Shown: positions 5,616 to 24,656, counted from the stretch's first letter. The stretch: DNA of 64,000 nt from Candidatus Poribacteria bacterium (GCA_965217715.1 OZ244563.1:1445083-1509082), one strand, 5' to 3'. Made by a program: numbers and translations. The notes: generated by a model from the sequence alone, not told the origin.

Positions 5616-5912
5616 ATGAAATACGGCTTATCAGACCGAACTCTTGAAAAAATACACGGCGTTTTCAAGCAGTATCCACAGATTGAGAAGGCAATTTTGT
5701 ACGGTTCACGTGCCATAGGCACATATCGAAACGGATCTGACATTGACCTAACCCTCTGTGGCGAAGGATTAACACACAGCGTGCTTTCTAAAATTGACAC
5801 CGATCTTGATGATCTGCTTTTACCTTATACGATTGACCTCTCTGTTTTCAGCAAGATAGGAAATCCGGATATGGTTGCGCAAATTGAACGTGTCGGGGGT
5901 GAACTTTTATGA
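5616..5912 (+). CDS. minimal nucleotidyltransferase (MNT/Pol-beta superfamily) protein
   Basis: The motif LYGSRAIGTYRNGSDIDLTL matches GS...DxD. Confidence 0.65.
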   Translation: MKYGLSDRTLEKIHGVFKQYPQIEKAILYGSRAIGTYRNGSDIDLTLCGEGLTHSVLSKIDTDLDDLLLPYTIDLSVFSKIGNPDMVAQIERVGGELL

Positions 5913-6500: not shown

Positions 6501-7805
6501 ATGGAAAACACAAAAGTTCAGGCAGTCTCATGGAATATCACCAGATTGTGCAATCTAAAATGTACGCACTGCTACCTCCCCGCCGGGTTCGTTGATACAG
6601 ACGAGTTTCCGCAAGGGTATTTGAGAGATGCAGAATTGAGCCAATCCGAGTGTTTTCGTATTATTGATGAGATAGCCGAAATTAACCCTCATATTCTGCT
6701 GATACTCACGGGTGGCGAACCGTTGTTACGTCCAGATATTCTGGAGATTTCAAAATACGCTTGGGATACCGGGTTTCTTGTCGTGATGGGAACAAATGGT
6801 GTCCTCCTGAACGACAAAGTCGTTGAAAAGATGCAACAACACGGTGTTACTGGCGCGGGATTAAGTCTGGATTCAATCCAGCCAGCAAATCACGATAAGT
6901 TTCGCGGAATGGAAGGCGCGTGGAAAGCAACGATGGGAGGCGTTGAAGCACTCAAACGTGCACAGCTTGACTTCCTCGTCCAAACCTCTGTGACGCAGTG
7001 GAATTACGATGAAATCCCAGAAATTGTAGAATTTGCATATCAGTTGGGGGCGAAGGTGCTAAACCTCTATTTTCTCGTGCGAACGGGACGGGGTAAGACG
7101 GTAATGGACATTACGCCTGCGCAATATGAGAAGATGCTTGAGACGATGTTCCAACTACAGGCAGAATATAGCGGGAAGATGCTCATCGCCGCGAAATGCG
7201 CACCGCATTACAAACGTGTTATCTATGAACAGCAGTCCGATTCAGCGTTCCTTCAAGGCTATCCGAGTGGTACGTGCCCTTGCGGTATCTATTATTGTCG
7301 CATAAGCCCTGAAGGTGAACTGACACCGTGTCCGTATCTACCTGTCAGCGTTGGCAATCTCAAAGACGAGAGTTTTGTCAAACTGTGGAATGAATCGGAA
7401 GCATTTCATGAGTTGCGAAATAGGGATATGCTGCAAGGGAAGTGTGGTGCATGTGAATTCAGAGAGGTATGCGGTGGATGTAGAGCACGTGCTTTTGCCA
7501 CGACTGGCAACTATCTTGCCGCAGATGAGTCTTGTGAATATCAACCAGGGCAGCAAAGACAACAGCCCGTTCAATTGGAAAAACGGACTGTCTTTGGAAC
7601 AGAACCCGATTACGATTTAAAGTGGAACGATGCAGCGGAAAAGAGATTGAAGCGCGTTCCATCATTTGCGCGCGGTATGGTTGTCAAAAGCGTTGAAAAA
7701 TATGCGCGTGAACACGGCTATCGAGAAATCACACCGGAACTGATGAAAGCGGTCAAAGAGAGGTTTGACAAAACTGGCATTCCCTCTTTCCGACCGCGTC
7801 GATAG
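6501..7805 (+). CDS. radical SAM enzyme with SPASM/twitch auxiliary-cluster domain and C-terminal PCP_red domain
   Basis: The CNLKCTHC sequence fits the Cx3Cx2C radical-SAM motif. Cys-rich SPASM region: CPCGIYYC...CPY, CGACEFREVCGGC. The C-terminus reads KWNDAAEKRLKRVPSFARGMVVKSVEKYAREHGYREITPELMKAVKERF. Confidence 0.75.
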   Translation: MENTKVQAVSWNITRLCNLKCTHCYLPAGFVDTDEFPQGYLRDAELSQSECFRIIDEIAEINPHILLILTGGEPLLRPDILEISKYAWDTGFLVVMGTNGVLLNDKVVEKMQQHGVTGAGLSLDSIQPANHDKFRGMEGAWKATMGGVEALKRAQLDFLVQTSVTQWNYDEIPEIVEFAYQLGAKVLNLYFLVRTGRGKTVMDITPAQYEKMLETMFQLQAEYSGKMLIAAKCAPHYKRVIYEQQSDSAFLQGYPSGTCPCGIYYCRISPEGELTPCPYLPVSVGNLKDESFVKLWNESEAFHELRNRDMLQGKCGACEFREVCGGCRARAFATTGNYLAADESCEYQPGQQRQQPVQLEKRTVFGTEPDYDLKWNDAAEKRLKRVPSFARGMVVKSVEKYAREHGYREITPELMKAVKERFDKTGIPSFRPRR

Positions 7806-7819
7806 ACTTGTATTTTCTT

Positions 7820-7928
7820 CTGTAGGAGGGAATCAACGCCAAATACGCGTGTGGTATTTGGCGGGTTTGTAACCCCGATTTCTTATTTTTCTTTTGTAGG
7901 AGGGGTTTGTAACCCCGATTTCTTACGC
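7820..7928. repeat. family-B (tgtaggag) MITE-like element containing a ccaaatacgcgtgtggtatttgg hairpin and two copies of ttgtaaccccgatttctta
   Basis: Intergenic. Shares tgtaggagg and gtttgtaaccccgat modules with copies at 27397, 29841, 31925, 32050 and 54735. Confidence 0.7.
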
Positions 7929-7951
7929 TAAAAACAGTAGAGGAAACTTGT

Positions 7952-8671
7952 ATGCTAACAGCAAAACAGGTGGAATATTTTCAGGAAAACGGATACCTTA
8001 TTCTTGAAAACTTGATCGATTCAGATGTAATTGATGGGTGGCGGGAACAGATTTGGAAGCATTTCAACTCCAGCTTGGAGACTCCAGAAACGTGGCCCGA
8101 CAATTATGTAGTAGAAAACTTCGGTTTTTCCCCAAATTTCGGACAATTGCCTCCGATGCAAGCGATTATTGAGCGATTGGGCGGTGGTGAGTTTGCAGGT
8201 GGAGGCGGCGCACCACTTGTGAAATGGCCTAACCCAGATGCGGAATGGTCAATGCCGGGTAGTGGACACATTGATGCCTATGGACCTGGTGGATGGAGTC
8301 CGTTTATGATGGGTGCAACGACCTATCTATACGACGTTGAACCCGGTGGCGGTGCTTTTGTCTTTTGGCCCAAAAGCCATCGGACAACACACGAATACTT
8401 CCTCAAATATCCTGAGCAGGTTGATGGAAGTTTTACAGATATTGAAGGGTGGAGTTGGAATTTATTTTCAGATTCATCACCAGAGGGACCGCGAGAGTTT
8501 ATCGGCGCGGCGGGTGATGTTGTGCTATGGCACGCATATCTGTGCCATACAGGTTCTGGCAATATCAGGAACATCCCACGTGTCGGCATATTCGCACGCT
8601 ACCACCATAAACGACGTGAAGAAATTAGATACGAAATTCCGGAAGACCTCTGGAAATATTGGGTAATTTAA
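7952..8671 (+). CDS. PhyH-family (phytanoyl-CoA dioxygenase-like) Fe(II)/2-oxoglutarate oxygenase
   Basis: N-terminal LTAKQVEYFQENGYLILENLI. An HxD motif (GSGHIDAYG) and a distal His (WHAYLCHTGSGN) are present. Confidence 0.6.
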   Translation: MLTAKQVEYFQENGYLILENLIDSDVIDGWREQIWKHFNSSLETPETWPDNYVVENFGFSPNFGQLPPMQAIIERLGGGEFAGGGGAPLVKWPNPDAEWSMPGSGHIDAYGPGGWSPFMMGATTYLYDVEPGGGAFVFWPKSHRTTHEYFLKYPEQVDGSFTDIEGWSWNLFSDSSPEGPREFIGAAGDVVLWHAYLCHTGSGNIRNIPRVGIFARYHHKRREEIRYEIPEDLWKYWVI

Positions 8672-15893: not shown

Positions 15894-16652
15894 TCAGATA
15901 GCATAGTGTAACCCACACTCTTTGTTGTTTTCCTCAGCGTCTGTTCCGTTTTGCCAACGCCATCTACCGGCACGTTTGGGTTCACCAGGTCGGATTCGCG
16001 TCGTACAGGTCATACATCCGAGTGATTCATAGTAGTGTCCATGAGCGTCAGGTTTAAAAAGCGGGTTGACAGGCACATCATTCTCACGCACAAATTGCCA
16101 TACTTGCTCGGTTGTCCAGTGAATTAAGGGACTCACCTTGAGAATAGGATGCGTCTTAGATGAGATGATTTCTGCTTTCTGAAAATTTTGTCGTGTTTCA
16201 GATTGATCTTTCCGCGTACCAGTAATCCAAACATCTAATGTTTCTAAAAGCGCTTGCATAGGGCGAATCTTTCGGACATCACAACAGTACTTCTGTTTCG
16301 CTTTGCTGTCAAAAAAGAGGTATTCCCCATGTTCGGTTATCATTTCTTCTACCTCAGTAGTGTTTGGCTGGATCCGTTCAATCTCAATACCGTAGCGTTC
16401 TTCAACTTGATCAAAAAAAGCGTAGGTTTCAGGAAAGAGACGAAACGTGTCTAACGTACACACTCTAAAAGGTAATTTACTTTCAGCGGCGAGATGTATT
16501 TGAACCATACCCGACAACTGACCACTTGTTACAATAGCTGCCCGATCATTAAACTGTTTAAAGAGGCAGAAAAGGATTTCTTGCGGGTCCTCTTTTAAGG
16601 TTATCTGCTGTTTCAATGTTATCATTGAAGCAGTTTCAATTTGAAATGCCAT
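15894..16652 (-). CDS. cysH: assimilatory adenylyl-sulfate/PAPS reductase (thioredoxin-dependent, Fe-S type)
   Basis: C-terminal ECGLH motif. CC...CxxC cysteines (KYCCD, CMTC) are typical of APS-type enzymes. Confidence 0.75.
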   Translation of the reverse strand: MAFQIETASMITLKQQITLKEDPQEILFCLFKQFNDRAAIVTSGQLSGMVQIHLAAESKLPFRVCTLDTFRLFPETYAFFDQVEERYGIEIERIQPNTTEVEEMITEHGEYLFFDSKAKQKYCCDVRKIRPMQALLETLDVWITGTRKDQSETRQNFQKAEIISSKTHPILKVSPLIHWTTEQVWQFVRENDVPVNPLFKPDAHGHYYESLGCMTCTTRIRPGEPKRAGRWRWQNGTDAEENNKECGLHYAI

Positions 16653-16678
16653 TCCGTTTTTTCCTGTTTAGACTCCTT

Positions 16679-17629
16679 TTATGGTAACGTCTCCATTATA
16701 TCGGTTTCAATTTCAAAATAGCGACTCAAGCTGAAGTAGCGTTCACCCGTATCCGGGAGAATCGTGACGACAGTTTTATCAGGTCCCTGTGCTTTAGCTA
16801 CCTGCAATGCAGCATGCACATTTGCTCCAGACGACATGCCTACTAACAAACCTTCTTTTTTTGAAATATCCTTCATGGTTTGATACGCTATCTCTTCAGA
16901 AACCGCAATGACATCATCAACGATGTCTACATTTAATACCTCAGGCACCATGCCTGCGCCAAGTCCATCAATCCGTGTCGGTCCGGGCACTCCACCTGAA
17001 AGTACAGATGAAACCAAAGGTTCTACAGCAACGACTTTTATTTTCGGATTTTCTGCTTTAAGAACTTCACCGACACCTGTTAACGTTCCTCCTGTGCCCA
17101 CACCAATGACAACGAAATCAATATCACTTCCTACAGAATCCAAAATTTCAACTGCAGTCGTCTCACGATGAATCAATGGGTTCGCAGGATTCGTAAACTG
17201 GTTCGGCATATAGTGTCGTGAATTTCGCCGAAGGATTTCTTCCGCTTCCCAGATTGCGCTTGCCATGCCACCGTGTTCGGGTGTAAGCACAATGTTCGCG
17301 CCAAACGCAGACAGAAGGCCATATTTTTCACTACTAACGTTCTCTGGCATTGTCAAAATTACTTGATAGCCACGGGCTACCCCAACAATAGAAAGTCCGA
17401 TACCTGTGTTGCCGGCTGTCGGTTCGACGATAGTGTCCCCCGGTTTTAGAATACCGCGTTCCTCTGCGTCAATGACCATGGCATAACTGATACGATCCTT
17501 AATGCTACCACCAGGATTATAAGATTCCAACTTTGCAAAGATAGTGGCATCCTCTTTCTCTGGCAGCGCATTCAGGCGAACCATCGGTGTATTCCCGATA
17601 AGTTTAGTCAGGTTTTCAGCAATTTTCAT
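16679..17629 (-). CDS. cysK: PLP-dependent cysteine synthase (CysK/CysM family)
   Basis: GGSIKDR lysine motif, GNTGIGL, and GTGGT(L/I)TG loops. Confidence 0.8.
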   Translation of the reverse strand: MKIAENLTKLIGNTPMVRLNALPEKEDATIFAKLESYNPGGSIKDRISYAMVIDAEERGILKPGDTIVEPTAGNTGIGLSIVGVARGYQVILTMPENVSSEKYGLLSAFGANIVLTPEHGGMASAIWEAEEILRRNSRHYMPNQFTNPANPLIHRETTAVEILDSVGSDIDFVVIGVGTGGTLTGVGEVLKAENPKIKVVAVEPLVSSVLSGGVPGPTRIDGLGAGMVPEVLNVDIVDDVIAVSEEIAYQTMKDISKKEGLLVGMSSGANVHAALQVAKAQGPDKTVVTILPDTGERYFSLSRYFEIETDIMETLP

Positions 17630-18063
17630 ATAAAGAACAAATGTGAATGGGTCGGTTGCGACAACTGTTTAAATTTACGCGCGTGGCAACAGAGTTCATG
17701 TAGGGTTTTTGTGTTTAATACATCCCGGACCTCTTCCTCAATTTCAGCGAAAAAAGGACCGATTTCAGACGATTGTTGTGTTTCAAAACCTTTTGTAAAA
17801 TCAACGGGACCCTCTACAGCAGCAAAGATATCACCTATCCGTATTTCATCTGGAGGTAGCGCTAAACTATACCCGCCATCAGGACCACGGCGGCTTGTAG
17901 TTAATCCAGCACCTTTGAGTTGTAAAAGAAGTTTCTCCAAAAACGGACCGGGAATACAACGTTTTTCAGCCAATGTCGTGACTGAAACGAATTCTTTACG
18001 ATACTGTAGACCGAGTTCCAACATCGCACAAACTGCATACTTCAACTTGGCAGATAATTGCAT
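17626..18063 (-). CDS. Rrf2-family (IscR/CymR-like) transcriptional regulator
   Basis: Starts MQLSAKLKYAVCAMLELG with a winged helix. 4-bp overlap with the downstream cysteine synthase, so the two look operonic. Confidence 0.75.
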   Translation of the reverse strand: MQLSAKLKYAVCAMLELGLQYRKEFVSVTTLAEKRCIPGPFLEKLLLQLKGAGLTTSRRGPDGGYSLALPPDEIRIGDIFAAVEGPVDFTKGFETQQSSEIGPFFAEIEEEVRDVLNTKTLHELCCHARKFKQLSQPTHSHLFFI

Positions 18064-18200
18064 CTGTGTTTCTCCCCCTAATTAAATCCTAACCAATTTA
18101 GGCAACTATATTATAATATATCTTACCAAAAAAGTCAAATAATTATGCTATTTCTTACTAAAATAGTCAAATTTAATCTCGTAACGCTTTCGTCGAGTTA

Positions 18201-18229
18201 TTGCATCGGTGTAGGAATTGTGTTATAAT
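18201..18229 (+). promoter_or_regulatory. sigma70-like promoter (TTGCAT-17-TATAAT) upstream of the methyltransferase
   Basis: ttgcat 18201-18206, tataat 18224-18229, 17-nt spacer. About 37 nt upstream of the ATG at 18266. Confidence 0.45.
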
Positions 18230-18265
18230 TTGAAATATACGATAAAGTGGACAGGTTGAAAAAAA

Positions 18266-19561
18266 ATGAAGGATAACGTTAAACAAATTATCAATGACTT
18301 TGGTGAAAGTATTGTTCAAGTAGATGGTGATATTCCGGTTGATTTGCCTGCAAAGGATGGCGATAGGTTTTTGTTTATCAGCCACGACCAAAGTTTTTTG
18401 ACGCACGGCTTACACAAGTACCCTGCCAAGTTTTTTCCTGAATTACCACGTTGGCTCATCAAACGGTATTCTCAAGAACACAATCAAATCCTGGACCCGT
18501 TTGCTGGTAGCGGCACTACAAATGTTGAAGCACTCCTCTCCAAGCGCAATTCTGTTGGAATTGATGTTGACCCATTTTCCCGTTTTATTTCACAAGTAAA
18601 GGTAACCCCTTTGCCAGAAACAGAACTTAAGTCTGCCCAAAAATCGCTTTTGGAGGCTATCCTCAACTACGATTCCTCACAGGTTACCGAATCCGACTTG
18701 CCGAACTTTCCTTATAGAGACAACTGGTTTGACATAGAAATTCTCTTTGAGTTAACCTACTTAAGAAAACATATCCAACAACTGGATACTAACGACGAGA
18801 TCAAAAACTTTTTCAAAGTATGTCTTTCGTCTATTATCCGTTCAGTATCCAATGCTGACGATAATTGCACTCGGACAGTGATTCGAAAGAAATTGAACAA
18901 ATTAGTAAAACCCTCCGATGCGTTGAACCGATTCGCAAAAACAGTTCTCACCAAAGTGCCAAAAATGGTTGCGTTTTCCCAAAACTATCCGACTAACATT
19001 ACCGTTGATTTTCCAGAGGACATGGATGCAAGGAATATCAAGTATGGGGAAGATTATTTCGATCTCGCGGTAACCTCTCCACCGTATGTCAATGCTGTTG
19101 ATTATCCGAGGACCCACCAATTGGAGATGTATTGGCTCGGTTTCGCGCAGGATTCGTTAACTGCTTTGAAGAAACAGAACGTTGGCACGGAGAGTGTTTC
19201 TGTAAGCCATTACAAAAATTTACACGAAATCGGAGTGCCAGAAGCGGACAAGGTGATAGTTCAAATTTTTGAAGCGGATCCAAGACGTGCGTATATCGCT
19301 TTTAAATTCTTGGAGGATATGCGAAAAAACCTCGTTGAAGTCTACAAGGTTTTGCGCAATGGTGGCAGATATATTGTCGTCGTGGGTAATAATCGTATTC
19401 GCGGGCAGCTATTTGAGAATTGGAAGTACCTCATGCCGATTGCCGAAAAAATTGGATTTGAAGTGGAAACCTATTTCGGTTCAGAGATTATCAAACACTT
19501 CATTAAGGTGCCAAGAGAAGAACGTATCAACACTGATTGGATTTTAGTTCTAAAGAAATAA
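18266..19561 (+). CDS. DNA methyltransferase (N4-cytosine or N6-adenine; amino-MTase)
   Basis: AdoMet motif I ILDPFAGSGTTNVEA near aa 77. Catalytic motif IV VTSPPYVNAVDY near aa 270. An intervening region of about 185 aa could be the TRD. Confidence 0.8.
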   Translation: MKDNVKQIINDFGESIVQVDGDIPVDLPAKDGDRFLFISHDQSFLTHGLHKYPAKFFPELPRWLIKRYSQEHNQILDPFAGSGTTNVEALLSKRNSVGIDVDPFSRFISQVKVTPLPETELKSAQKSLLEAILNYDSSQVTESDLPNFPYRDNWFDIEILFELTYLRKHIQQLDTNDEIKNFFKVCLSSIIRSVSNADDNCTRTVIRKKLNKLVKPSDALNRFAKTVLTKVPKMVAFSQNYPTNITVDFPEDMDARNIKYGEDYFDLAVTSPPYVNAVDYPRTHQLEMYWLGFAQDSLTALKKQNVGTESVSVSHYKNLHEIGVPEADKVIVQIFEADPRRAYIAFKFLEDMRKNLVEVYKVLRNGGRYIVVVGNNRIRGQLFENWKYLMPIAEKIGFEVETYFGSEIIKHFIKVPREERINTDWILVLKK

Positions 19562-19578
19562 ACGGACAGAGGTAGAAC

Positions 19579-20100
19579 ATGGCTAACTCAGAACAAAGAG
19601 GTAGACAAGCTTCAGTAGACGGATTCGCTCATGAGCACATTGTGGTCGGAATTCTGATGAAAAAATATCAAAACGTATCATTGGTTGATTTACCTTTGTC
19701 ACCTTACGATATCATTATCGTGCGTAAGGACGCTGATGATACTGAAGACATTATCCGTGCACAAGTCAAAACCGCTAAACAGTCTATTTCTTTCATCGGT
19801 GGATCGAGAGGTGGCGTTGATAGAGAATATCGATCAGGCGTTAAAACTTATAGACAATCCACTGCAACCTCAGACGTTGTTATTGGGATTCATCCAGTAG
19901 ACGATAATACCTACGAACTCTATTTTGTTCCTACGCTTCTTATAGAACACCTTAATCAACAGAGTATTTCTATTAACAAAATCGCTGATTTGAAAGAGAA
20001 TTACTACATTTTGGAAAACTGCAAAAATGAAGAAGTAATCATCGAAAAGTGCCAAGAATATCGTATTCTTACCTCTACTCCGAGCCTTTTCAAGAGTTGA
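19579..20100 (+). CDS. candidate cognate restriction endonuclease / PD-(D/E)xK-like small nuclease (173 aa)
   Basis: Starts 18 nt after the MTase stop. PYDIIIVRKD...IRAQVKT resembles a D...(E/Q)xK core. Assignment is weak. Confidence 0.35.
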   Translation: MANSEQRGRQASVDGFAHEHIVVGILMKKYQNVSLVDLPLSPYDIIIVRKDADDTEDIIRAQVKTAKQSISFIGGSRGGVDREYRSGVKTYRQSTATSDVVIGIHPVDDNTYELYFVPTLLIEHLNQQSISINKIADLKENYYILENCKNEEVIIEKCQEYRILTSTPSLFKS

Positions 20101-20208
20101 TCTCAAATTTTATCCTCTCTTCCAAGACGCTTCAAACCGAAACTGTGTGTCAAAATTTTCTTTCTAATGTCTTGGGTATATAGTTTTGTCTAAAAAGAGC
20201 AAAGCATC

Positions 20209-20910
20209 ATGATACAAGTTGAGTGCGAAAAAAGAAACAATTATCCACATAACAGAGAACTTCTCTTATTTGACAGATGTGCTTTTCAAGCTATTAGCAA
20301 CGAAGAACTGCTCAAAGTGAACGAAAAGTATAATGTCCTTTGCCCTCGGATATTTGTAATGGAATGTCTTGTGCCTAATAGGGAACCTGAACAAAGGAAA
20401 ATACTTTGCGAAAGATTGAGACTGATAGAAAATCCTATAGTTATTAAAGGCAACACCAATATATCCTTTAATCTAAAGATACTCCCAAATCCATTTTATG
20501 ACACACAGTTCCATACAATTCTTACATCAAGAGTAATCGCCAGGAATTGCATCGTATCCAATTCTATAACAATGGAGCGAGTCACACCGGAAGAACTTCT
20601 ATCACATTATGAAGCCCAAATAAGTGATTTCAAACGCGAGATACGGATGAAAACCAGTGCATTAGAGTCCAATAAAGCAAAACTTACTATTAATAAGCTC
20701 GCGGAAGCTCATAGATTCCGCCAAGGACCGGACAACGAAATTCCATCTAAGAAAGAACTCAAACGCCTGTTAGAAGAAGATGGACTCAGTTATGTAACAC
20801 AGGAATTGGAGTACGTTGCTAAAGAAGCACTGCAAGAAATCGAAAAAAAACCGGTAGACCAAATTATTGAAGAGTTCACGGGACTGCTCCTGCTTACCCC
20901 TAGTGGTTAG
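20209..20910 (+). pseudogene. N-terminal 231 codons of an unknown gene interrupted by an IS630-family element
   Basis: The ORF stop (tag 20908-20910) lies inside the IS left inverted repeat. The reading frame resumes exactly after the IS at 22155. Confidence 0.6.
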
Positions 20911-22152
20911 TCCAGTCTAACTTTTCGGGTATAGATGTTTTAATCTGACACGCGCATCGTCCGTTGTAAATTGCCAGTCTACCTGCTTTTGCTCTGCATT
21001 TCTACGTTTTTGCCACGCTTGTGTCTCTCTACGGAGTGTCTCTATATCTGGGATTCGACGACACAAACATTGGCGTGTAAGGACGCTAAGTTCTATTTCC
21101 GCTATATTCAACCAACTTCCATGAATGGGGGTATGCACGATTTCTAAACGCTTCCGGAACCTATCTGCTTCTTCATCTCCAAACACTTTATTGAGTGACG
21201 CGAGTTTATGTGTATTCAGGTTATCACAAACTAAAATGACCTGTTTTGCGGATGGGTAGACCTCATCCAATAGTATTTTGACTTCTTCTGCCCAATCCAC
21301 TGTCTTTCGGTGCGTCCGAACAGACACACGCCGCCATCCCGAGAGTGCCTCTGTAAATAGGAAGATATTTGCTGTGCCTTTGCGTTTATACTCGTTATCT
21401 ACGCGCTTGACTTGTCCCGGTTTCGCAGGATACGGTTCACGAACATCATCCCTAAGTGTGACAGATTGTTCGTCCATGTTCACAACAGGAGTATCCGCAG
21501 CCAAAGGTTTCTGGTAAAGATCAAGCACTTCTTCCATTGACTTTACAAACTCAGCGTCTTTTTCAGGGGGTATCACCCACTGTTGCTGAAGGTGTGGTTT
21601 CAACGCGTTTTTTTTAGTGTCTGCCGCACCGTTTCTGGAGAAATGTTTTCCACAACTTCAAGTCTTACCAACTCTGACGCAAGCAGACGTAACGTCCATT
21701 TGGCAGCACCTTCGGGAGGGGTTCCACAACTCAGTGCTATCAACCTTGCTTCTCCGTCACCATCAAGTTTACGAGGTGTCGGTGGATGCTTCCGCTTCGC
21801 ACGATATAAGGCACGAGAAAAGCCACCTTCCACAAAACGCTGACGCACTTTCGCAACTGTCCTATCAGTGCACTCATACGCCTCAGCTATTCTCGCGTCA
21901 GTCCAGCAGGGACCATTTATATCTGATTTCAGCAAAATATGAGCATGCCTTATCATATATGCCTCTTTTTTACCTGTGTTAATAATATCTGATAACTCCT
22001 GTCGTTCCGCATCGGTCAGTTGGACAACATATTTCTTATTCAAGGGTGTGTTCCTCCTTATGTATTGCTATACTATAAGAGAACACTTTTGTTTGTCAAG
22101 ATGCCGAGAAATCTACAAAAACCAAAACAAACTTTTAGGATGGACTATCCAC
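20903..22152 (-). mobile_element. IS630/Tc1-family insertion sequence (about 1.25 kb), inserted in CTAG with TA duplication
   Basis: Terminal IRs ctagtggttagtccagtctaa (20900-20920) and ttagactggactaaccactag-like ttaggatggactatccactag (22135-22155), matching 18/21. TA at 20901-2 and 22153-4, flanked by C...G. Confidence 0.8.
20917..22043 (-). CDS. IS630-family transposase in two frames (HTH ORF 21600-22043, DDE ORF 20917-21603) joined at an A8 run
   Basis: DDE region has VILVCDNLNTHK and HGSWLNIAEIELS. The ORFs overlap at cactaaaaaaaacg, which is either a -1 frameshift site or a homopolymer error. Confidence 0.75.
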
Positions 22153-22154
22153 TA

Positions 22155-22465
22155 GAGACACAAGGATACTTAGCGATCGAATAATTGGAGAAAAAAGATT
22201 CACAGCGAAAAATTACCCGGAATTGGCATATCCAATGTACATCTGTTATCTGGAGTACTTTATACTTTGTGCTACTCTGCACAACACAAAACATTTTGAC
22301 CAGTCATGGGCACGTGACTTTGAGTACCTAGAATACTTAAATTTTTGCGACAGATTTGTTGCAGATGAGTCGTCTACACCTAAAATAGTTCGATCACTTT
22401 TGTTTGACAACATAAACGAAACACCTATTAGTACTCTAACGGAACTAAAAGAAAGTCTAACTTAA
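22155..22465 (+). pseudogene. C-terminal 103 codons of the IS-interrupted gene
   Basis: In frame with 20209-20902 once the IS is removed. No stop until 22463-22465. Confidence 0.6.
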
Positions 22466-22625
22466 GTAAAAGGATTGCAATGGGTGTGTAAAGTTTTTGA
22501 CAGGAATACACCTTTTCTTTTGTTAGAAGGTCTTTCAACCCAACAAATCGGACTTACAGAGCCCTCCTACAAGAGAGATGAAATGGTTAATGTCAAAATA
22601 TTTTTACCCATTGCTACTATATGAA

Positions 22626-22652
22626 TTGACATATTCATAGTTATGCTATAAA
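22626..22652 (+). promoter_or_regulatory. candidate sigma70-like promoter (TTGACA-15/16-TATAAA) upstream of acs
   Basis: ttgaca 22626-22631, tataaa 22647-22652. About 60 nt upstream of the acs start. Confidence 0.3.
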
Positions 22653-22712
22653 ATGGAATCAAACTTAAGATAACAGAATGGCACAGAGATAAGTTCATAT
22701 AGGAGAGAATAG

Positions 22713-24656
22713 ATGGCTAACGATATTTTTCCACCGATGGAGACTGCCTATCCGATCAGTGATGCTCACGTCAACAGTTTGGAAGCATATCAGGCACGAT
22801 ACGCTGAATCAATTCAAGACCCAGAAGGTTTTTGGGCAGCAATTGCGGAGCGGTTGACGTGGTATCAAAAATGGGATACAGTTCGGGATTATGATTTTGT
22901 CAAAGCACAGATTAAATGGTTTGAAGGCGGCACGTTGAACGCCTGCTATAACTGCCTTGATCGACACGTGGAAGCAGGACACGGCGATGAGACAGCTATT
23001 ATTTGGGAAGGAAATGACCCTTCCGAAGATAAGACATTCAGTTTTAGCGAACTGCTGGTAGAGGTCAAAAAGTTCTCCAATGTCCTAAAAGCACAAGGCG
23101 TTGAAAAAGGTGACCGTGTCTGTATCTACTTGCAAATGGTGCCAGAGTTGGCAATTGCAATGTTGGCATGTGCAAGGATTGGTGCGGTTCATTCCATCGT
23201 TTTCGGTGCGTTTTCAGCCGAATCGCTGCGGGATCGGATTAACGATTCTGCGTGTAAACTGTTGATAACGCAAGATACAGCGCTGCGTGGTACTCGAAGC
23301 GACATCCCGATGAAGGCAAACGCCGATGCCGCAGTTGCAAATTGCCCATCTATTGAAAATGTAGTTGTCGTGAAACGCACTAGTGATGAGGTTGATTTTG
23401 ACGCTTCCCGTGATGTTTGGTGGCACGAAGCGATGGCAACTGCGGATGCCGAATGCGAACCTGAAGTCATGAATGCTGAAGACCCGCTTTTTATTCTTTA
23501 TACATCTGGGTCAACAGGAAAACCGAAAGGTGTTTTGCATACCACAGGCGGCTATCTGGTGTATACCTCTTATTCGCATCAGCAGGTTTTTGACTACCAT
23601 GAAGGTGATGTATATTGGTGCACCGCAGATATAGGTTGGATTACCGGACATTCTTATATTATCTACGGTCCGCTGACTAATCGTGCAATTAGCGTCATGT
23701 TTGAAGGTGTCCCGAATTACCCTGATTTTGGACGTTTTTGGCAAGTCGTTGAGAAGCACAAAATTAATCTTTTCTATACTGCCCCGACAGCCCTGCGTGC
23801 TTTGATGAAAGAGGGGGATACATGGGTAGAAAAATACGATAGGTCTACGCTAAGGTTGCTTGGCACAGTAGGGGAACCGATTAAAGAACCTGAATGGTTG
23901 TGGTATTATAACATTGTTGGTAACAAACGGTGTCCGATCATAGATACATGGTGGCAGACCGAAACAGGTGGAATTCTGATTACACCGTTACCCGCGGCGA
24001 CTCCGCTGAAACCGGGTTCTGCAACGTTCCCGTTCTTTGGCATTGAACCGGTGATATTAGATGAAGAAGGAAACGAAGTAGAAGGTAATCCCGCGACCGG
24101 TTATCTTTGCATTAAAACTGCTTGGCCCGGTATTATGCGCACAGTGTATGGCGACCATGAACGTTTCATTGATGTCTATTTTCGGCGATTCCCCGGCTAT
24201 TACATGACTGGCGATGGTGTGTTGCGTGACGAAGATGGATATTACTGGATTACAGGTCGAGTGGATGACGTGCTGAATGTTTCTGGACACAGGTTAGGCA
24301 CTGCTGAAGTTGAAGGTGCTATCGGGCAACATGATGCTGTTGCGGAAGCTGCGGTTGTCGGATACCCGCATGACATCAAGGGACAGGGTATCTATGCGTA
24401 TGTCACACTTATGACGGGTGAATCAGACTCAGATGACGTGGTAACAGGTATCAAACAGGCAGTACGGCAACATATCGGACCTATCGCTACACCTGATAAA
24501 ATTCAGTTTACACCCGCTTTGCCGAAAACCCGTTCGGGTAAAATTATGCGGCGCATTCTGCGTAAAATAGCAGAAGGTGATATATCTAATCTCGGTGATA
24601 CATCCACACTTGCCGATCCGACTGTGGTTGAAGCGTTAGTTGAAGGCAGACAGTAA
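22713..24656 (+). CDS. acs: acetyl-CoA synthetase (AMP-forming)
   Basis: [14 protein letters not shown]-binding motif. Length 647 aa. Acs-typical N-terminus ([16 protein letters not shown]) and C-terminal Lys region. Confidence 0.9.

What the first reader, a model, noticed from the sequence alone, without database searches (positions are those of the whole stretch)
18201..22465. Promoter-MTase-small nuclease-unknown gene island; the third gene is split by an IS630 element and can be reconstructed exactly
Behind a consensus-like TTGCAT-17-TATAAT promoter lie a DNA amino-methyltransferase (DPFAGSGTT / SPPY), a 173-aa ORF with a PD...(Q)xK-like core and an unknown gene. The IS630-family element (20903-22152) sits in a CTAG site with a TA duplication. 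Removing it, and one TA, joins 20209-20902 to 22155-22465 into one uninterrupted 334-codon ORF; ORF 22223-22465 is its tail. This points to a recent insertional knock-out of the third component of a possible three-gene restriction/defence module. The island also looks AT-richer than its flanks. The unknown third gene has no recognisable motif and may be a new defence-associated component.
Basis: seen in the sequence. Interest (0 to 1): 0.8.

Follow-up and report, generated by a model that had tools for sequence, protein, structure and literature searches.

The report
IS-split PIN nuclease beside restriction system
A jumping gene has recently cut in two a previously undescribed PIN-type nuclease gene that sits next to an ordinary two-gene restriction-modification system in a Poribacteria genome; relatives of this nuclease keep turning up beside other restriction and defence genes, so it is a candidate new defence gene, not a third subunit of this restriction system.

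Summary
An IS630-family element (20903-22152) lies in a CTAG site with a TA duplication. Removing it plus one TA joins 20209-20902 to 22155-22465 into a 334-codon ORF. A near-identical environmental contig (L022) lacks the IS and reads the predicted junction. A related Poribacteria genome (L001) has the intact 334-aa gene at the same locus.

Family members lie directly next to four unrelated kinds of restriction gene or other defence and toxin genes. The gene is most likely an independent, defence-island-associated nuclease. That function is inferred, not shown.

The parts
18201..18229 (+). Promoter-like site for the MTase-ORF2 operon: TTGCAT (18201-18206), 17-nt spacer, TGn (18221-18223), TATAAT (18224-18229)
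   Evidence: Read directly from the sequence. Conserved in L001 as TTGCAT-17-TGcTACAAT. The -35 matches TTGACA in only 3 of 6 positions, so the consensus scan did not list it. Function is inferred.
18266..19561 (+). Type II DNA amino-methyltransferase, 431 aa. Motif I (DPFAGSGTT, residues 77-85) lies N-terminal to motif IV (SPPY, about residues 270-273), i.e. the alpha-type order.
   Evidence: PADLOC MTase_II PDLC03362 at 2.7e-76. Pfam N6_N4_Mtase at 6.2e-17. Weak PDB sequence hits to an N4-cytosine MTase and a putative modification methylase. 90% identical in L001 and 60-83% identical in 49 metagenome loci, always directly upstream of ORF2.
19579..20100 (+). Putative Type II restriction endonuclease, 173 aa, PD-(D/E)xK fold. 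Candidate catalytic residues are E19, D44, Q62-x-K64.
20209..20902 (+). 5' part (codons 1-231 plus 1 nt) of the interrupted PIN-like nuclease gene (ORF3). As it stands it gives a 233-aa truncated product ending at 20910.
   Evidence: (P0003 is the exact truncated product).
20903..22152 (-). IS630-family insertion sequence, 1250 bp. IRs at 20903-20920 and 22135-22152. TA target duplication at 20901-20902 and 22153-22154 within CTAG. Transposase read on the minus strand as orfA 22043-21600 and orfB 21603-20917, joined by a -1 shift at an A8 run (T8 at 21608-21615 on the + strand). Own promoter TTGACA-16-TATAGT at 22099-22072 (minus strand).
   Evidence: The element is absent from the otherwise near-identical contig L022. 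It is the only copy in the window.
22155..22465 (+). 3' part (codons 232-334 plus stop) of the interrupted PIN-like nuclease gene. It carries the C-terminal half of the PIN active site (D286, E303).
   Evidence: It has no stops or frameshifts and is identical to L022 except for one A in a homopolymer.

Best explanation
The 18.2-22.5 kb island holds two independent modules and one recent mobile-element insertion.

(a) Restriction-modification cassette. An extended -10 promoter drives an alpha-type SPPY amino-methyltransferase and, 17 bp downstream, a 173-aa PD-(D/E)xK endonuclease. The MTase would mark the host's own sites and the nuclease would cut unmarked incoming DNA. The fold, the conserved residues and the obligatory MTase partnership are shown. 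Cleavage and the recognition sequence are inferred or unknown.

(b) Stand-alone nuclease gene. A 334-aa gene encodes a VapC-like PIN-domain nuclease. Its core is split between beta4 and beta5 by a helical insert of about 115 residues. The four metal-binding acidic residues (D22, E52, D286, E303) are conserved across the wider family. It is a member of a small, unannotated family whose close relatives are all from Poribacteria. The family behaves as a single-gene cassette that lands beside different restriction and defence genes. The most likely role is a Mg2+/Mn2+-dependent nuclease, probably an RNase, acting as a defence or abortive-infection effector or toxin. It has no separate antitoxin gene, and the helical insert is a candidate regulatory or sensor element. 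This role is inferred from fold and neighbourhood only.

(c) IS630 insertion. An IS630-family element inserted into one of the very few CTAG sites left in this CTAG-depleted genome and duplicated TA. The insertion separates the N-terminal half of the PIN site (D22, E52) from the C-terminal half (D286, E303), which inactivates the gene. The event is recent and still polymorphic in the population.
For: Excision and empty site: (L022 reads the predicted junction; L023 has the IS). Syntenic intact orthologue.

Two-gene RM cassette:
- MTase family hits.
- ORF2 fold and invariant E/D/QxK residues.
- MTase directly upstream in L010 and L013-L015. An amino-MTase is present in 72 of 77 metagenome loci with room; 58 have it directly upstream on the same strand.
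- ORF2 also pairs with a second, only 21-25% identical MTase lineage in other orientations, as expected if the nuclease needs some cognate methylase.
- 0 of 40 loci have an ORF3 relative downstream, and 50 loci show no recurrent third gene.

ORF3 as a PIN-like nuclease:
- AF2 pLDDT 82, pTM 0.82.
- D22, E52 and D286 are invariant and position 303 is always acidic in a 17-sequence alignment reaching 19-22% identity.

Small family: 34 representatives among 1.84 billion proteins. All 9 genome hits are Poribacteria.

Defence neighbourhoods:
- Type ISP enzyme and GmrSD.
- ResIII helicase and trypsin-TPR.
- ParE-like.
- SNF2/NOV_C helicase and ThsB_TIR.
- Type ISP, Mrr_cat_2 and Hypoth_Ymh.
- RelA_SpoT.
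- N6_N4 MTase-HNH fusion 4 bp upstream.

Selection: dN/dS between window and L001 is 0.28 for ORF3, against 0.08-0.10 for the RM genes.

CTAG: 7 sites in 64 kb against about 110 expected. Two of the six pre-insertion sites lie in ORF3.
Against: - No biochemical or phenotypic data exist for any family member. Defence is guilt by association from about 9 independent neighbourhoods, without a formal background test.
- PIN membership rests on a predicted structure. No PIN Pfam model matches any of 17 family members, even at E<=5. I could not inspect the model coordinates to confirm that the four acidic residues cluster.
- D297, well conserved among close relatives, varies in distant ones, so the exact quartet assignment is inferred.
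- The ORF2 model has only moderate confidence (pLDDT 68; residues 67-94 are unmodelled), and it has Q rather than D/E in the (D/E)xK motif.
- ORF2 is unusually conserved for a restriction enzyme (64-92% identity across many environments). This could hint at another constraint.
- The IS-free contig L022 has one extra A in ORF3 (a frameshift) at 2x coverage. This may be an assembly error, or that allele may also be dead.
Confidence: 0.65

Rival explanations
1. Three-component system. ORF3 would be an obligate third subunit of this particular restriction/defence module, and its loss would disable or alter the system.
For: ORF3 is co-oriented with ORF2 and lies only 108 bp downstream. The same MTase-ORF2-ORF3 arrangement is conserved in L001 and L022.
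Against: None of 40 metagenome MTase-ORF2 loci with downstream room has an ORF3 relative, and neither do L010 or L013-L015. ORF2 has more than 1072 clusters against about 37 for ORF3. ORF3 relatives in 8 other contexts lack this MTase and ORF2. ORF3 evolves about 3 times faster in dN/dS than the RM genes.
Confidence: 0.07
2. ORF3 is a selfish toxin or addiction gene: a VapC-like PIN toxin whose antitoxin is fused, cis-acting or missing. It would stabilise islands or hitch-hike in them and give no phage defence. The IS insertion would simply have removed a costly gene.
For: VapC toxins are among the best structural matches. One neighbourhood has a ParE-like gene and another a RelA_SpoT gene. 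Remnant copies in L008 and L009 and the IS knock-out suggest frequent loss. [quoted passage not shown]
Against: No antitoxin-like small gene is conserved next to the family; upstream and downstream DNA is unrelated between loci. dN/dS of 0.28 shows that the protein was maintained by selection. This reading is hard to separate from a defence role with the present data.
Confidence: 0.2
3. ORF2 is not a restriction endonuclease. It could instead be a mobility or homing-type nuclease, or a repair PD-(D/E)xK nuclease, that travels with an orphan methyltransferase.
For: The best structural match is the homing endonuclease I-Ssp6803I, followed by Holliday-junction resolvases. Conservation is unusually high for a restriction enzyme. 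No REBASE-derived PADLOC REase model matches.
Against: ORF2 is almost always adjacent to an amino-MTase, of two different lineages and in different orientations. This is the hallmark of a toxic nuclease that needs protective methylation. Several genuine Type II REases (NhoI, HhaI, PvuII, HinP1I) are also among the structural matches. The cassette sits in many unrelated chromosomal contexts.
Confidence: 0.1
4. ORF3 is a housekeeping RNA-processing PIN nuclease that happens to lie next to the RM genes.
For: Many PIN proteins process rRNA or mRNA; Utp24, Nob1, SMG6 and Rrp44 are among the structural matches.
Against: The family is extremely rare and patchy: 34 representatives in 1.84 billion proteins. 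It is found in varied non-syntenic places. Its GC is lower than 99.6% of same-size windows in this 64-kb window. It keeps CTAG sites that the host genome has purged. It is dispensable, given the IS knock-out and remnants elsewhere.
Confidence: 0.03

Closest known systems
VapC-like PIN-domain nucleases (PIN domain-like superfamily, VapC-like structural group; Matelska et al. 2017, PMC5499597)
   Different: ORF3 has 334 aa rather than about 130. A helical insert of about 115 residues splits the domain between beta4 and beta5. No VapB-type antitoxin gene is present. No PIN Pfam model matches any member.
DUF4935 (PF16289) / PIN_12: roughly 350-aa monocistronic PIN-like proteins of unknown function
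   Same: Similar size, and encoded as a single gene. It has a PIN-like core with long helical additions and conserved acidic residues. 1y82 is also named as a structural relative of DUF4935 in PMC5499597.
   Different: In DUF4935 the PIN domain is the contiguous N-terminal 200 residues, followed by an alpha/beta region. Here the PIN core is interrupted and completed by the C-terminal 80 residues. ORF3 gives no PF16289 hit at E<=1, and no family member does at E<=5.
PIN-like toxins embedded in Type I restriction-modification loci (PMC5499597) and, functionally, the PrrC/EcoprrI anticodon-nuclease arrangement (PrrC from my own knowledge, not checked here)
   Same: A ribonuclease-type toxin domain is encoded next to, and co-oriented with, restriction genes, sometimes without an antitoxin. 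PrrC is a latent RNase kept silent by its RM partner and released when phage inhibits restriction. This gives a plausible model for an RM-adjacent nuclease.
   Different: The published survey found PIN genes with Type I subunits and explicitly none with Type II systems. Here the partners are Type II, Type ISP and an MTase-HNH fusion. PrrC is an ABC-ATPase/HEPN-type protein, not a PIN protein. No physical or functional coupling has been tested.
Type II restriction-modification systems with small PD-(D/E)xK endonucleases (e.g. PvuII, HhaI, NhoI)
   Same: An MTase gene is immediately followed by a small nuclease of the restriction fold. The cassette is mobile between genomic contexts.
   Different: The nuclease has no sequence match to any solved or PADLOC-modelled REase. 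It has QxK in place of (D/E)xK. It is unusually conserved, at 64-92% identity over hundreds of loci. Its specificity is unknown.
IS630 family insertion sequences
   Same: DDE_3 transposase matching NF033545; TA duplication; CTAG target; short terminal inverted repeats; length of 1.25 kb.
   Different: The transposase is read in two frames joined at an A8 run. Whether this is programmed slippage, a mutation or a homopolymer assembly error was not resolved.

Membership tests
IS630 family insertion sequence | DDE transposase of the IS630/Tc1-mariner type | tested here: met
   The C-terminal ORF scores 130.2 bits against NF033545 (cutoff 100) and hits Pfam DDE_3 at 3e-20. The N-terminal ORF matches HMM positions 13-107, and the two are contiguous in the model.
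IS630 family insertion sequence | Duplication of a TA dinucleotide at the target (NTAN/CTAG), with terminal inverted repeats | tested here: met
   TA lies at 20901-20902 and 22153-22154 within CTAG, and the IRs match in 14 of 18 positions. The empty site in L022 has a single CTAG.
Type II restriction-modification system | A separate DNA methyltransferase with an AdoMet-binding motif and a (S/D/N)PP(Y/F) catalytic motif | tested here: met
   DPFAGSGTT and SPPY are present. PADLOC MTase_II scores 2.7e-76 and Pfam N6_N4_Mtase 6e-17.
Type II restriction-modification system | A separate endonuclease gene adjacent to, and co-inherited with, the methyltransferase | tested here: met
   ORF2 has the PD-(D/E)xK fold. 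An amino-MTase is present in 72 of 77 loci with room, including two MTase lineages.
Type II restriction-modification system | Sequence-specific cleavage blocked by the cognate methylation | not testable with these tools
   This needs enzyme assays or methylome data. REBASE was not available.
PIN domain-like superfamily (VapC-like group) | Rossmann-like alpha/beta/alpha fold with a 5-stranded parallel sheet | tested here: met
PIN domain-like superfamily (VapC-like group) | Three or four conserved acidic residues at the canonical positions | tested here: met
   D22 (end of beta1), E52 (helix after beta2) and D286 are invariant, and position 303 (after the last strand) is always E or D in 17 sequences down to 19% identity. 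Their clustering in 3D was not inspected.
PIN domain-like superfamily (VapC-like group) | Match to a curated PIN sequence model (Pfam clan CL0280 families) | tested here: not met
   ORF3 has no Pfam hit at E<=1. No PIN-type family is hit by any of 17 members at E<=5.
VapBC type II toxin-antitoxin system | An adjacent small antitoxin gene with a DNA-binding domain, usually upstream and overlapping | tested here: not met
   The 108-bp spacer upstream of ORF3 holds no ORF. The flanks are not conserved between loci, and the small neighbouring ORFs differ.
DUF4935 (PF16289) | Match to PF16289, with a contiguous N-terminal PIN-like region followed by an alpha/beta C-terminal region | tested here: not met
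   There is no PF16289 hit. The PIN core here is split by a helical insert.
Known anti-phage defence systems (PADLOC-DB v2.0.0) | Match of ORF2 or ORF3 to any PADLOC protein model | tested here: not met
   Both have 0 families at E<=1. Only the MTase matches.
HEPN domain protein (JGI's name for homologue P0032) | All-helical HEPN fold with an Rx4-6H motif | tested here: not met

The most novel reading that the evidence does not exclude
The split-PIN family is a new single-gene anti-phage effector that works as a 'guard' of neighbouring restriction enzymes. On this reading it would be a latent nuclease, held in check through its helical insert. It would be released when a phage anti-restriction factor disables the adjacent Type II, Type ISP or MTase-HNH system, analogous to PrrC with EcoprrI. 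That would explain why the gene repeatedly sits immediately downstream of, and co-oriented with, unrelated RM enzymes.
Probability: 0.12. Interest if true: 0.7.

Novelty: new variant of a known kind. Interest (0 to 1): 0.45.

Why it matters
The restriction-modification pair and the IS630 insertion are ordinary biology, although the nuclease is an uncharacterised and unusually conserved putative restriction enzyme with many environmental copies.

What is new is the third gene. It defines a rare PIN-like nuclease family absent from Pfam, NCBIfam, PADLOC, PHROGs and the PDB. The family has an unusual split-domain architecture.

Its members repeatedly lie beside four unrelated kinds of restriction enzyme, and elsewhere beside other defence and toxin genes. 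A published survey of PIN-like proteins reported links to Type I systems only and none to Type II systems (PMC5499597).

If the family proves to be a defence effector, or a guard of restriction systems, it would add a new single-gene module to the bacterial immune repertoire. It comes from a candidate phylum (Poribacteria) known here only from metagenome-assembled genomes.

The natural IS knock-out, with both alleles present in public metagenomes, offers a ready-made comparison of strains with and without the gene.

Tried and rejected
- Sequence-family searches for ORF2 and ORF3 (Pfam, NCBIfam, PADLOC, PHROGs) gave nothing meaningful. Scanning 8 distant relatives and all 17 members of alignment A4 against Pfam also gave nothing.
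- PDB sequence searches found no relatives for ORF2, or for ORF3 as a profile.
- tblastn of ORF2 against plasmids and phages, and of ORF3 against plasmids, found no match.
- Foldseek of the ORF3 model against viral structures found nothing at E<=0.001.
- The afdb50 fold library was not available. Full-length structural analogues that include the helical insert could therefore not be sought.
- I looked for conserved flanking DNA, repeats or a shared promoter around ORF3 genes in 9 loci. None is shared beyond syntenic pairs, so there is no sign of a defined mobile cassette boundary.
- I tested whether the 369-aa gene downstream of ORF2 in L010 is a hidden PIN relative. It is not (hhalign probability 0.2%).
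- JGI's 'HEPN domain' label on homologue P0032 was rejected on fold grounds.
- Palindrome avoidance did not identify the RM specificity. CTAG, GGCC, CATATG and GACGTC are all depleted, so no single site can be assigned to this system.

Full report
**1. Observation**

Region 18.2-22.5 kb contains, on the + strand:
- a 431-aa ORF (18266-19561);
- a 173-aa ORF (19579-20100);
- a 233-aa ORF (20209-20910);
- an 80-aa ORF (22223-22465).

Between the last two, on the minus strand, lie two overlapping transposase ORFs.

The transposase is IS630-family. Its C-terminal part scores 130 bits against NCBIfam NF033545 (cutoff 100). It also hits Pfam DDE_3 and HTH_32.

The element runs from 20903 to 22152. 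Its imperfect inverted repeats are GTGGtTAGTCCA... and GTGGaTAGTCCA.... It is flanked by TA at 20901-20902 and 22153-22154, and each copy lies inside a CTAG.

Deleting the element and one TA gives 1005 nt, which is 334 codons plus a stop with no internal stop. The 22223-22465 ORF is its in-frame tail.

**2. Independent proof of the reconstruction**

- Exact-protein look-up of ORF2 found a 7-kb contig from another sample (L022). It is 99.95% identical to window 18915-20903 and then continues directly at 22149. It reads ...CTGCTTACCCCTAGAGACACAAGG..., the predicted empty site with a single CTAG.
- A second contig (L023) is 100% identical across the left IS junction. Both alleles therefore exist in nature.
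- L022 differs from the reconstructed ORF3 by one extra A in a homopolymer, which breaks the frame. The contig name indicates 2x coverage, so I treat this as a probable assembly error, but that is not proven.
- A related Poribacteria MAG (L001, CBDANF010000003.1) has the same gene order: PAPS reductase, CysK, Rrf2, MTase (90% identity), ORF2 (90%), an intact 334-aa ORF3 (80%), and acetyl-CoA synthetase.
- About 35 further homologues of 296-366 aa align over the full reconstructed length.

**3. Recency**

- The two ORF3 halves carry no stops or frameshifts.
- The target duplication and inverted repeats are intact.
- The IS has its own strong promoter-like site, TTGACA-16-TATAGT.
- The transposase is split only by a -1 shift at an A8 run, and the two parts are contiguous in the family HMM.
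- Between window and L001, ORF3 has dN/dS 0.28. It was under purifying selection, though weaker than the MTase (0.083), ORF2 (0.098) or the flanking housekeeping genes (0.04-0.09).

**4. MTase and ORF2 form a closed two-gene restriction-modification cassette**

The MTase:
- It matches PADLOC Type II MTase model PDLC03362 (2.7e-76) and Pfam N6_N4_Mtase.
- Motif I precedes SPPY, with about 185 residues between them. This is the alpha-type order.
- SPPY is typical of N4-cytosine enzymes. This is my own knowledge, and the target base was not tested.

ORF2:
- It has no sequence-family or PDB sequence match.
- Its AF2 model has pLDDT 68; the core is confident and loop 67-94 is not.
- E19, D44, Q62 and K64 are invariant in 45 homologues.
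- The family is large (more than 1072 clusters at 90% identity) and strikingly conserved, at 64-92% identity.

Co-occurrence:
- In L010 and L013-L015 the MTase lies directly upstream, and no ORF3 relative follows.
- 80 metagenome loci were examined. Of the 77 with room upstream, 72 carry an amino-MTase.
- Of the loci with an MTase hit, 49 have a full-length match to this MTase family (60-83% identity). The gaps to ORF2 are mostly 2-48 bp.
- About 14 loci instead carry a distant MTase lineage (21-25% identity) in other orientations.
- A nuclease that always travels with some methylase, whichever lineage, is the signature of a restriction enzyme.
- None of 40 loci with at least 1.2 kb downstream holds an ORF3/PIN relative. 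Clustering of downstream ORFs in 50 loci found no recurrent third gene.

**5. ORF3 is a split PIN-like nuclease of a rare family**

Structure:
- The AF2 model built on 35 homologues is confident (pLDDT 82, pTM 0.82).
- The core is formed by residues about 17-135 and about 253-320.
- Residues 138-250 form a helical insert. Its middle (about 160-200) has low confidence and is deleted in a 296-aa subfamily.

Active site:
- The alignment was extended to relatives of 19-22% identity.
- D22 (end of beta1), E52 (helix after beta2) and D286 are invariant, and position 303 (just after the last strand, F-V-T-x-E/D) is always acidic.
- This is the canonical PIN quartet by position in the secondary structure. 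I could not inspect the coordinates.
- The IS separates D22 and E52 from D286 and E303, so the truncated 233-aa product cannot form the site. This is an inference.

Family size and annotation:
- An exhaustive HMMER search of 1.84 billion representatives with the family profile found only 34 proteins.
- All 9 hits in the species-representative genome collection are Candidatus Poribacteria.
- A second-iteration search added a subfamily of about 358 aa, again with no Pfam domain and no informative name.
- No PIN Pfam model matches any member.
- JGI's 'HEPN' label on one homologue is not supported by the fold.

**6. Where the family sits**

The independent neighbourhoods examined were:
1. This island, also in L001 and L022: a Type II RM pair directly upstream on the same strand.
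2. L003 and L018: a 1042-aa Type ISP RM enzyme directly upstream. In L003 a GmrSD enzyme lies directly downstream.
3. L002 and L017: a ResIII/SNF2-type helicase of about 1046-1049 aa, a small ORF and a trypsin-TPR protein upstream.
4. L016: a ParE-like gene set upstream.
5. L019: an SNF2/NOV_C helicase and a ThsB-type TIR gene downstream.
6. L020 and L021 (distant relative P0174): a Type ISP enzyme, Hypoth_Ymh and Mrr_cat_2 genes.
7. L024 (358-aa subfamily): a ParA-like ATPase and a RelA_SpoT gene upstream, with an IS200-type transposase nearby.
8. L025, a paralogue in the L001 genome: 4 bp downstream of an N6_N4 MTase-HNH fusion.
9. L005: small unknown genes only.

In summary:
- Four of the nine contexts have a restriction or modification gene as the immediate neighbour, and a fifth (L020/L021) has Type ISP and Mrr-type genes a few hundred bp downstream. 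The partners fall into four unrelated kinds (Type II pair, Type ISP, GmrSD, MTase-HNH fusion).
- Eight of the nine have defence or toxin-type genes within a few kb.
- Flanking DNA is not conserved between contexts.
- L008 and L009 retain only C-terminal remnants.
- This pattern fits a single-gene defence-island cassette with frequent gain and loss. It is not a formal enrichment test.

**7. Composition and the choice of target**

- With the IS removed, the island has GC 0.392. This is below every same-size window elsewhere in the 64 kb (mean 0.436, sd 0.017).
- ORF3 alone (GC 0.376) is lower than 99.6% of 1-kb windows.
- The genome is extremely depleted in CTAG: 7 observed against about 110 expected under a maximal-order Markov model.
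- Two of those seven sites are the duplicated IS junctions, and one more lies in the ORF3 tail. The 1-kb ORF3 therefore held 2 of the 6 pre-insertion CTAGs in 64 kb.
- An IS that uses CTAG/TA targets would have few other places to land. This plausibly explains why this gene was hit (inference).
- The flanks are housekeeping genes: sulfur assimilation, an Rrf2 regulator, acetyl-CoA synthetase, MoeA and a MATE transporter. This is a small islet, not a large defence island.

**8. Mechanism proposed**

Shown:
- the gene structures, the excision and the population polymorphism;
- the two predicted folds and the conserved residues;
- the co-occurrence statistics.

Inferred:
- The MTase-ORF2 pair acts as a Type II RM system of unknown specificity, transcribed from the conserved extended -10 promoter. 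Its -35 matches the consensus in only 3 of 6 positions.
- ORF3 is a metal-dependent nuclease, probably an RNase like the VapC-like group. It would act as a stand-alone defence effector or toxin, with regulation possibly residing in the helical insert.
- The IS insertion abolishes ORF3 function.

A more speculative model is that ORF3 guards the adjacent restriction enzyme in the manner of PrrC with EcoprrI. PrrC is recalled from my own knowledge.

**9. Comparison with the literature**

- The PIN superfamily survey (PMC5499597) describes PIN-like toxins coupled to Type I RM subunits, sometimes without antitoxins. It states that none were seen with Type II systems.
- It also describes DUF4935, monocistronic PIN-like proteins of about 350 aa with helical inserts. 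This is the nearest described kind. ORF3 fails the PF16289 model, and its domain layout differs.
- Titles and abstracts of sponge-microbiome studies report enrichment of defence-related features in sponge symbionts, which is consistent background (PMC5649159 and PMC5099237).

**10. Verdict**

- The three-gene-module interpretation is replaced by a two-gene RM cassette plus an independent, IS-inactivated, novel PIN-like gene.
- The RM pair and the IS are new members of known kinds.
- The PIN-like family is a new variant of a known kind, and its function is unproven.
- Interest is moderate.

Noticed in passing
whole window (CTAG at 20900, 22152, 22328, 23380, 32290, 32320, 51048): Several short palindromes are strongly avoided. 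Observed versus maximal-order Markov expectation: CTAG 7 vs 110, GGCC 25 vs 100, CATATG 0 vs 13.5, GACGTC 0 vs 6.5. This suggests long-term pressure from several restriction systems or repair biases. The horizontally acquired ORF3 held 2 of the 6 pre-insertion CTAG sites.
   Followed up: partly
L026-L105 (metagenome loci with ORF2 homologues): The ORF2 nuclease family (64-78% identical to the window copy) pairs with two unrelated amino-methyltransferase lineages. One is 60-83% identical to the window MTase and lies directly upstream. The other is only 21-25% identical and lies in divergent or other orientations. The nuclease is unusually conserved for a restriction enzyme.
   Followed up: partly
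window 18110-18172 (minus-strand sites 18138-18110 and 18170-18142): Two tandem promoter-like sites for the divergent Rrf2-CysK-PAPS reductase operon are built on a 19-bp direct repeat, CTTACnAAAAnAGTCAAAT (18122-18140 and 18154-18172). They are conserved in L001 and may be the operator/promoter region of the Rrf2 regulator.
   Followed up: no
window 21608-21615 (T8 on + strand, A8 on the transposase strand): The IS630 transposase is read as two ORFs (147 and 228 aa). A -1 shift at the A8 run would fuse them into one protein that is contiguous in the family HMM. This could be programmed slippage, an inactivating mutation or a homopolymer assembly error.
   Followed up: partly
L001 about 5640-5905 and 7722-8000: The syntenic genome carries about 270 bp of extra DNA between the conserved promoter and the MTase start. 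It also has about 170 bp extra in the ORF2-ORF3 spacer, including a G/C-rich hairpin (CCCCCCTACCCCCC...GGGGGAGGG). These look like small inserted repeat elements.
   Followed up: no
L022 position about 2042 (reconstructed ORF3 nt 748): The IS-free allele has one extra A in an A-run that frameshifts ORF3. The contig name indicates 2x coverage, so this is probably an assembly error. If it is real, ORF3 has been inactivated twice independently.
   Followed up: partly
L008 8001-8342; L009 142-342: Only C-terminal remnants (residues 221-334 and 267-333) of ORF3 homologues remain in two other Poribacteria genomes. This indicates repeated decay of this gene family.
   Followed up: no
L025 4632-7026: The L001 genome has a distant paralogue of ORF3 (P0188, 341 aa). 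It lies 4 bp downstream of a 454-aa N6_N4 methyltransferase fused to an HNH nuclease. This is another PIN-like/RM pairing and a possible two-gene system in its own right.
   Followed up: partly
window vs L001, genes 15894-24656: Synonymous divergence is lower in the island (dS 0.39-0.58) than in the left-flank genes (0.79-0.90). Acs on the right has dS 0.51. This may reflect AT-biased codon usage or a more recent exchange of the island and right flank between lineages.
   Followed up: no
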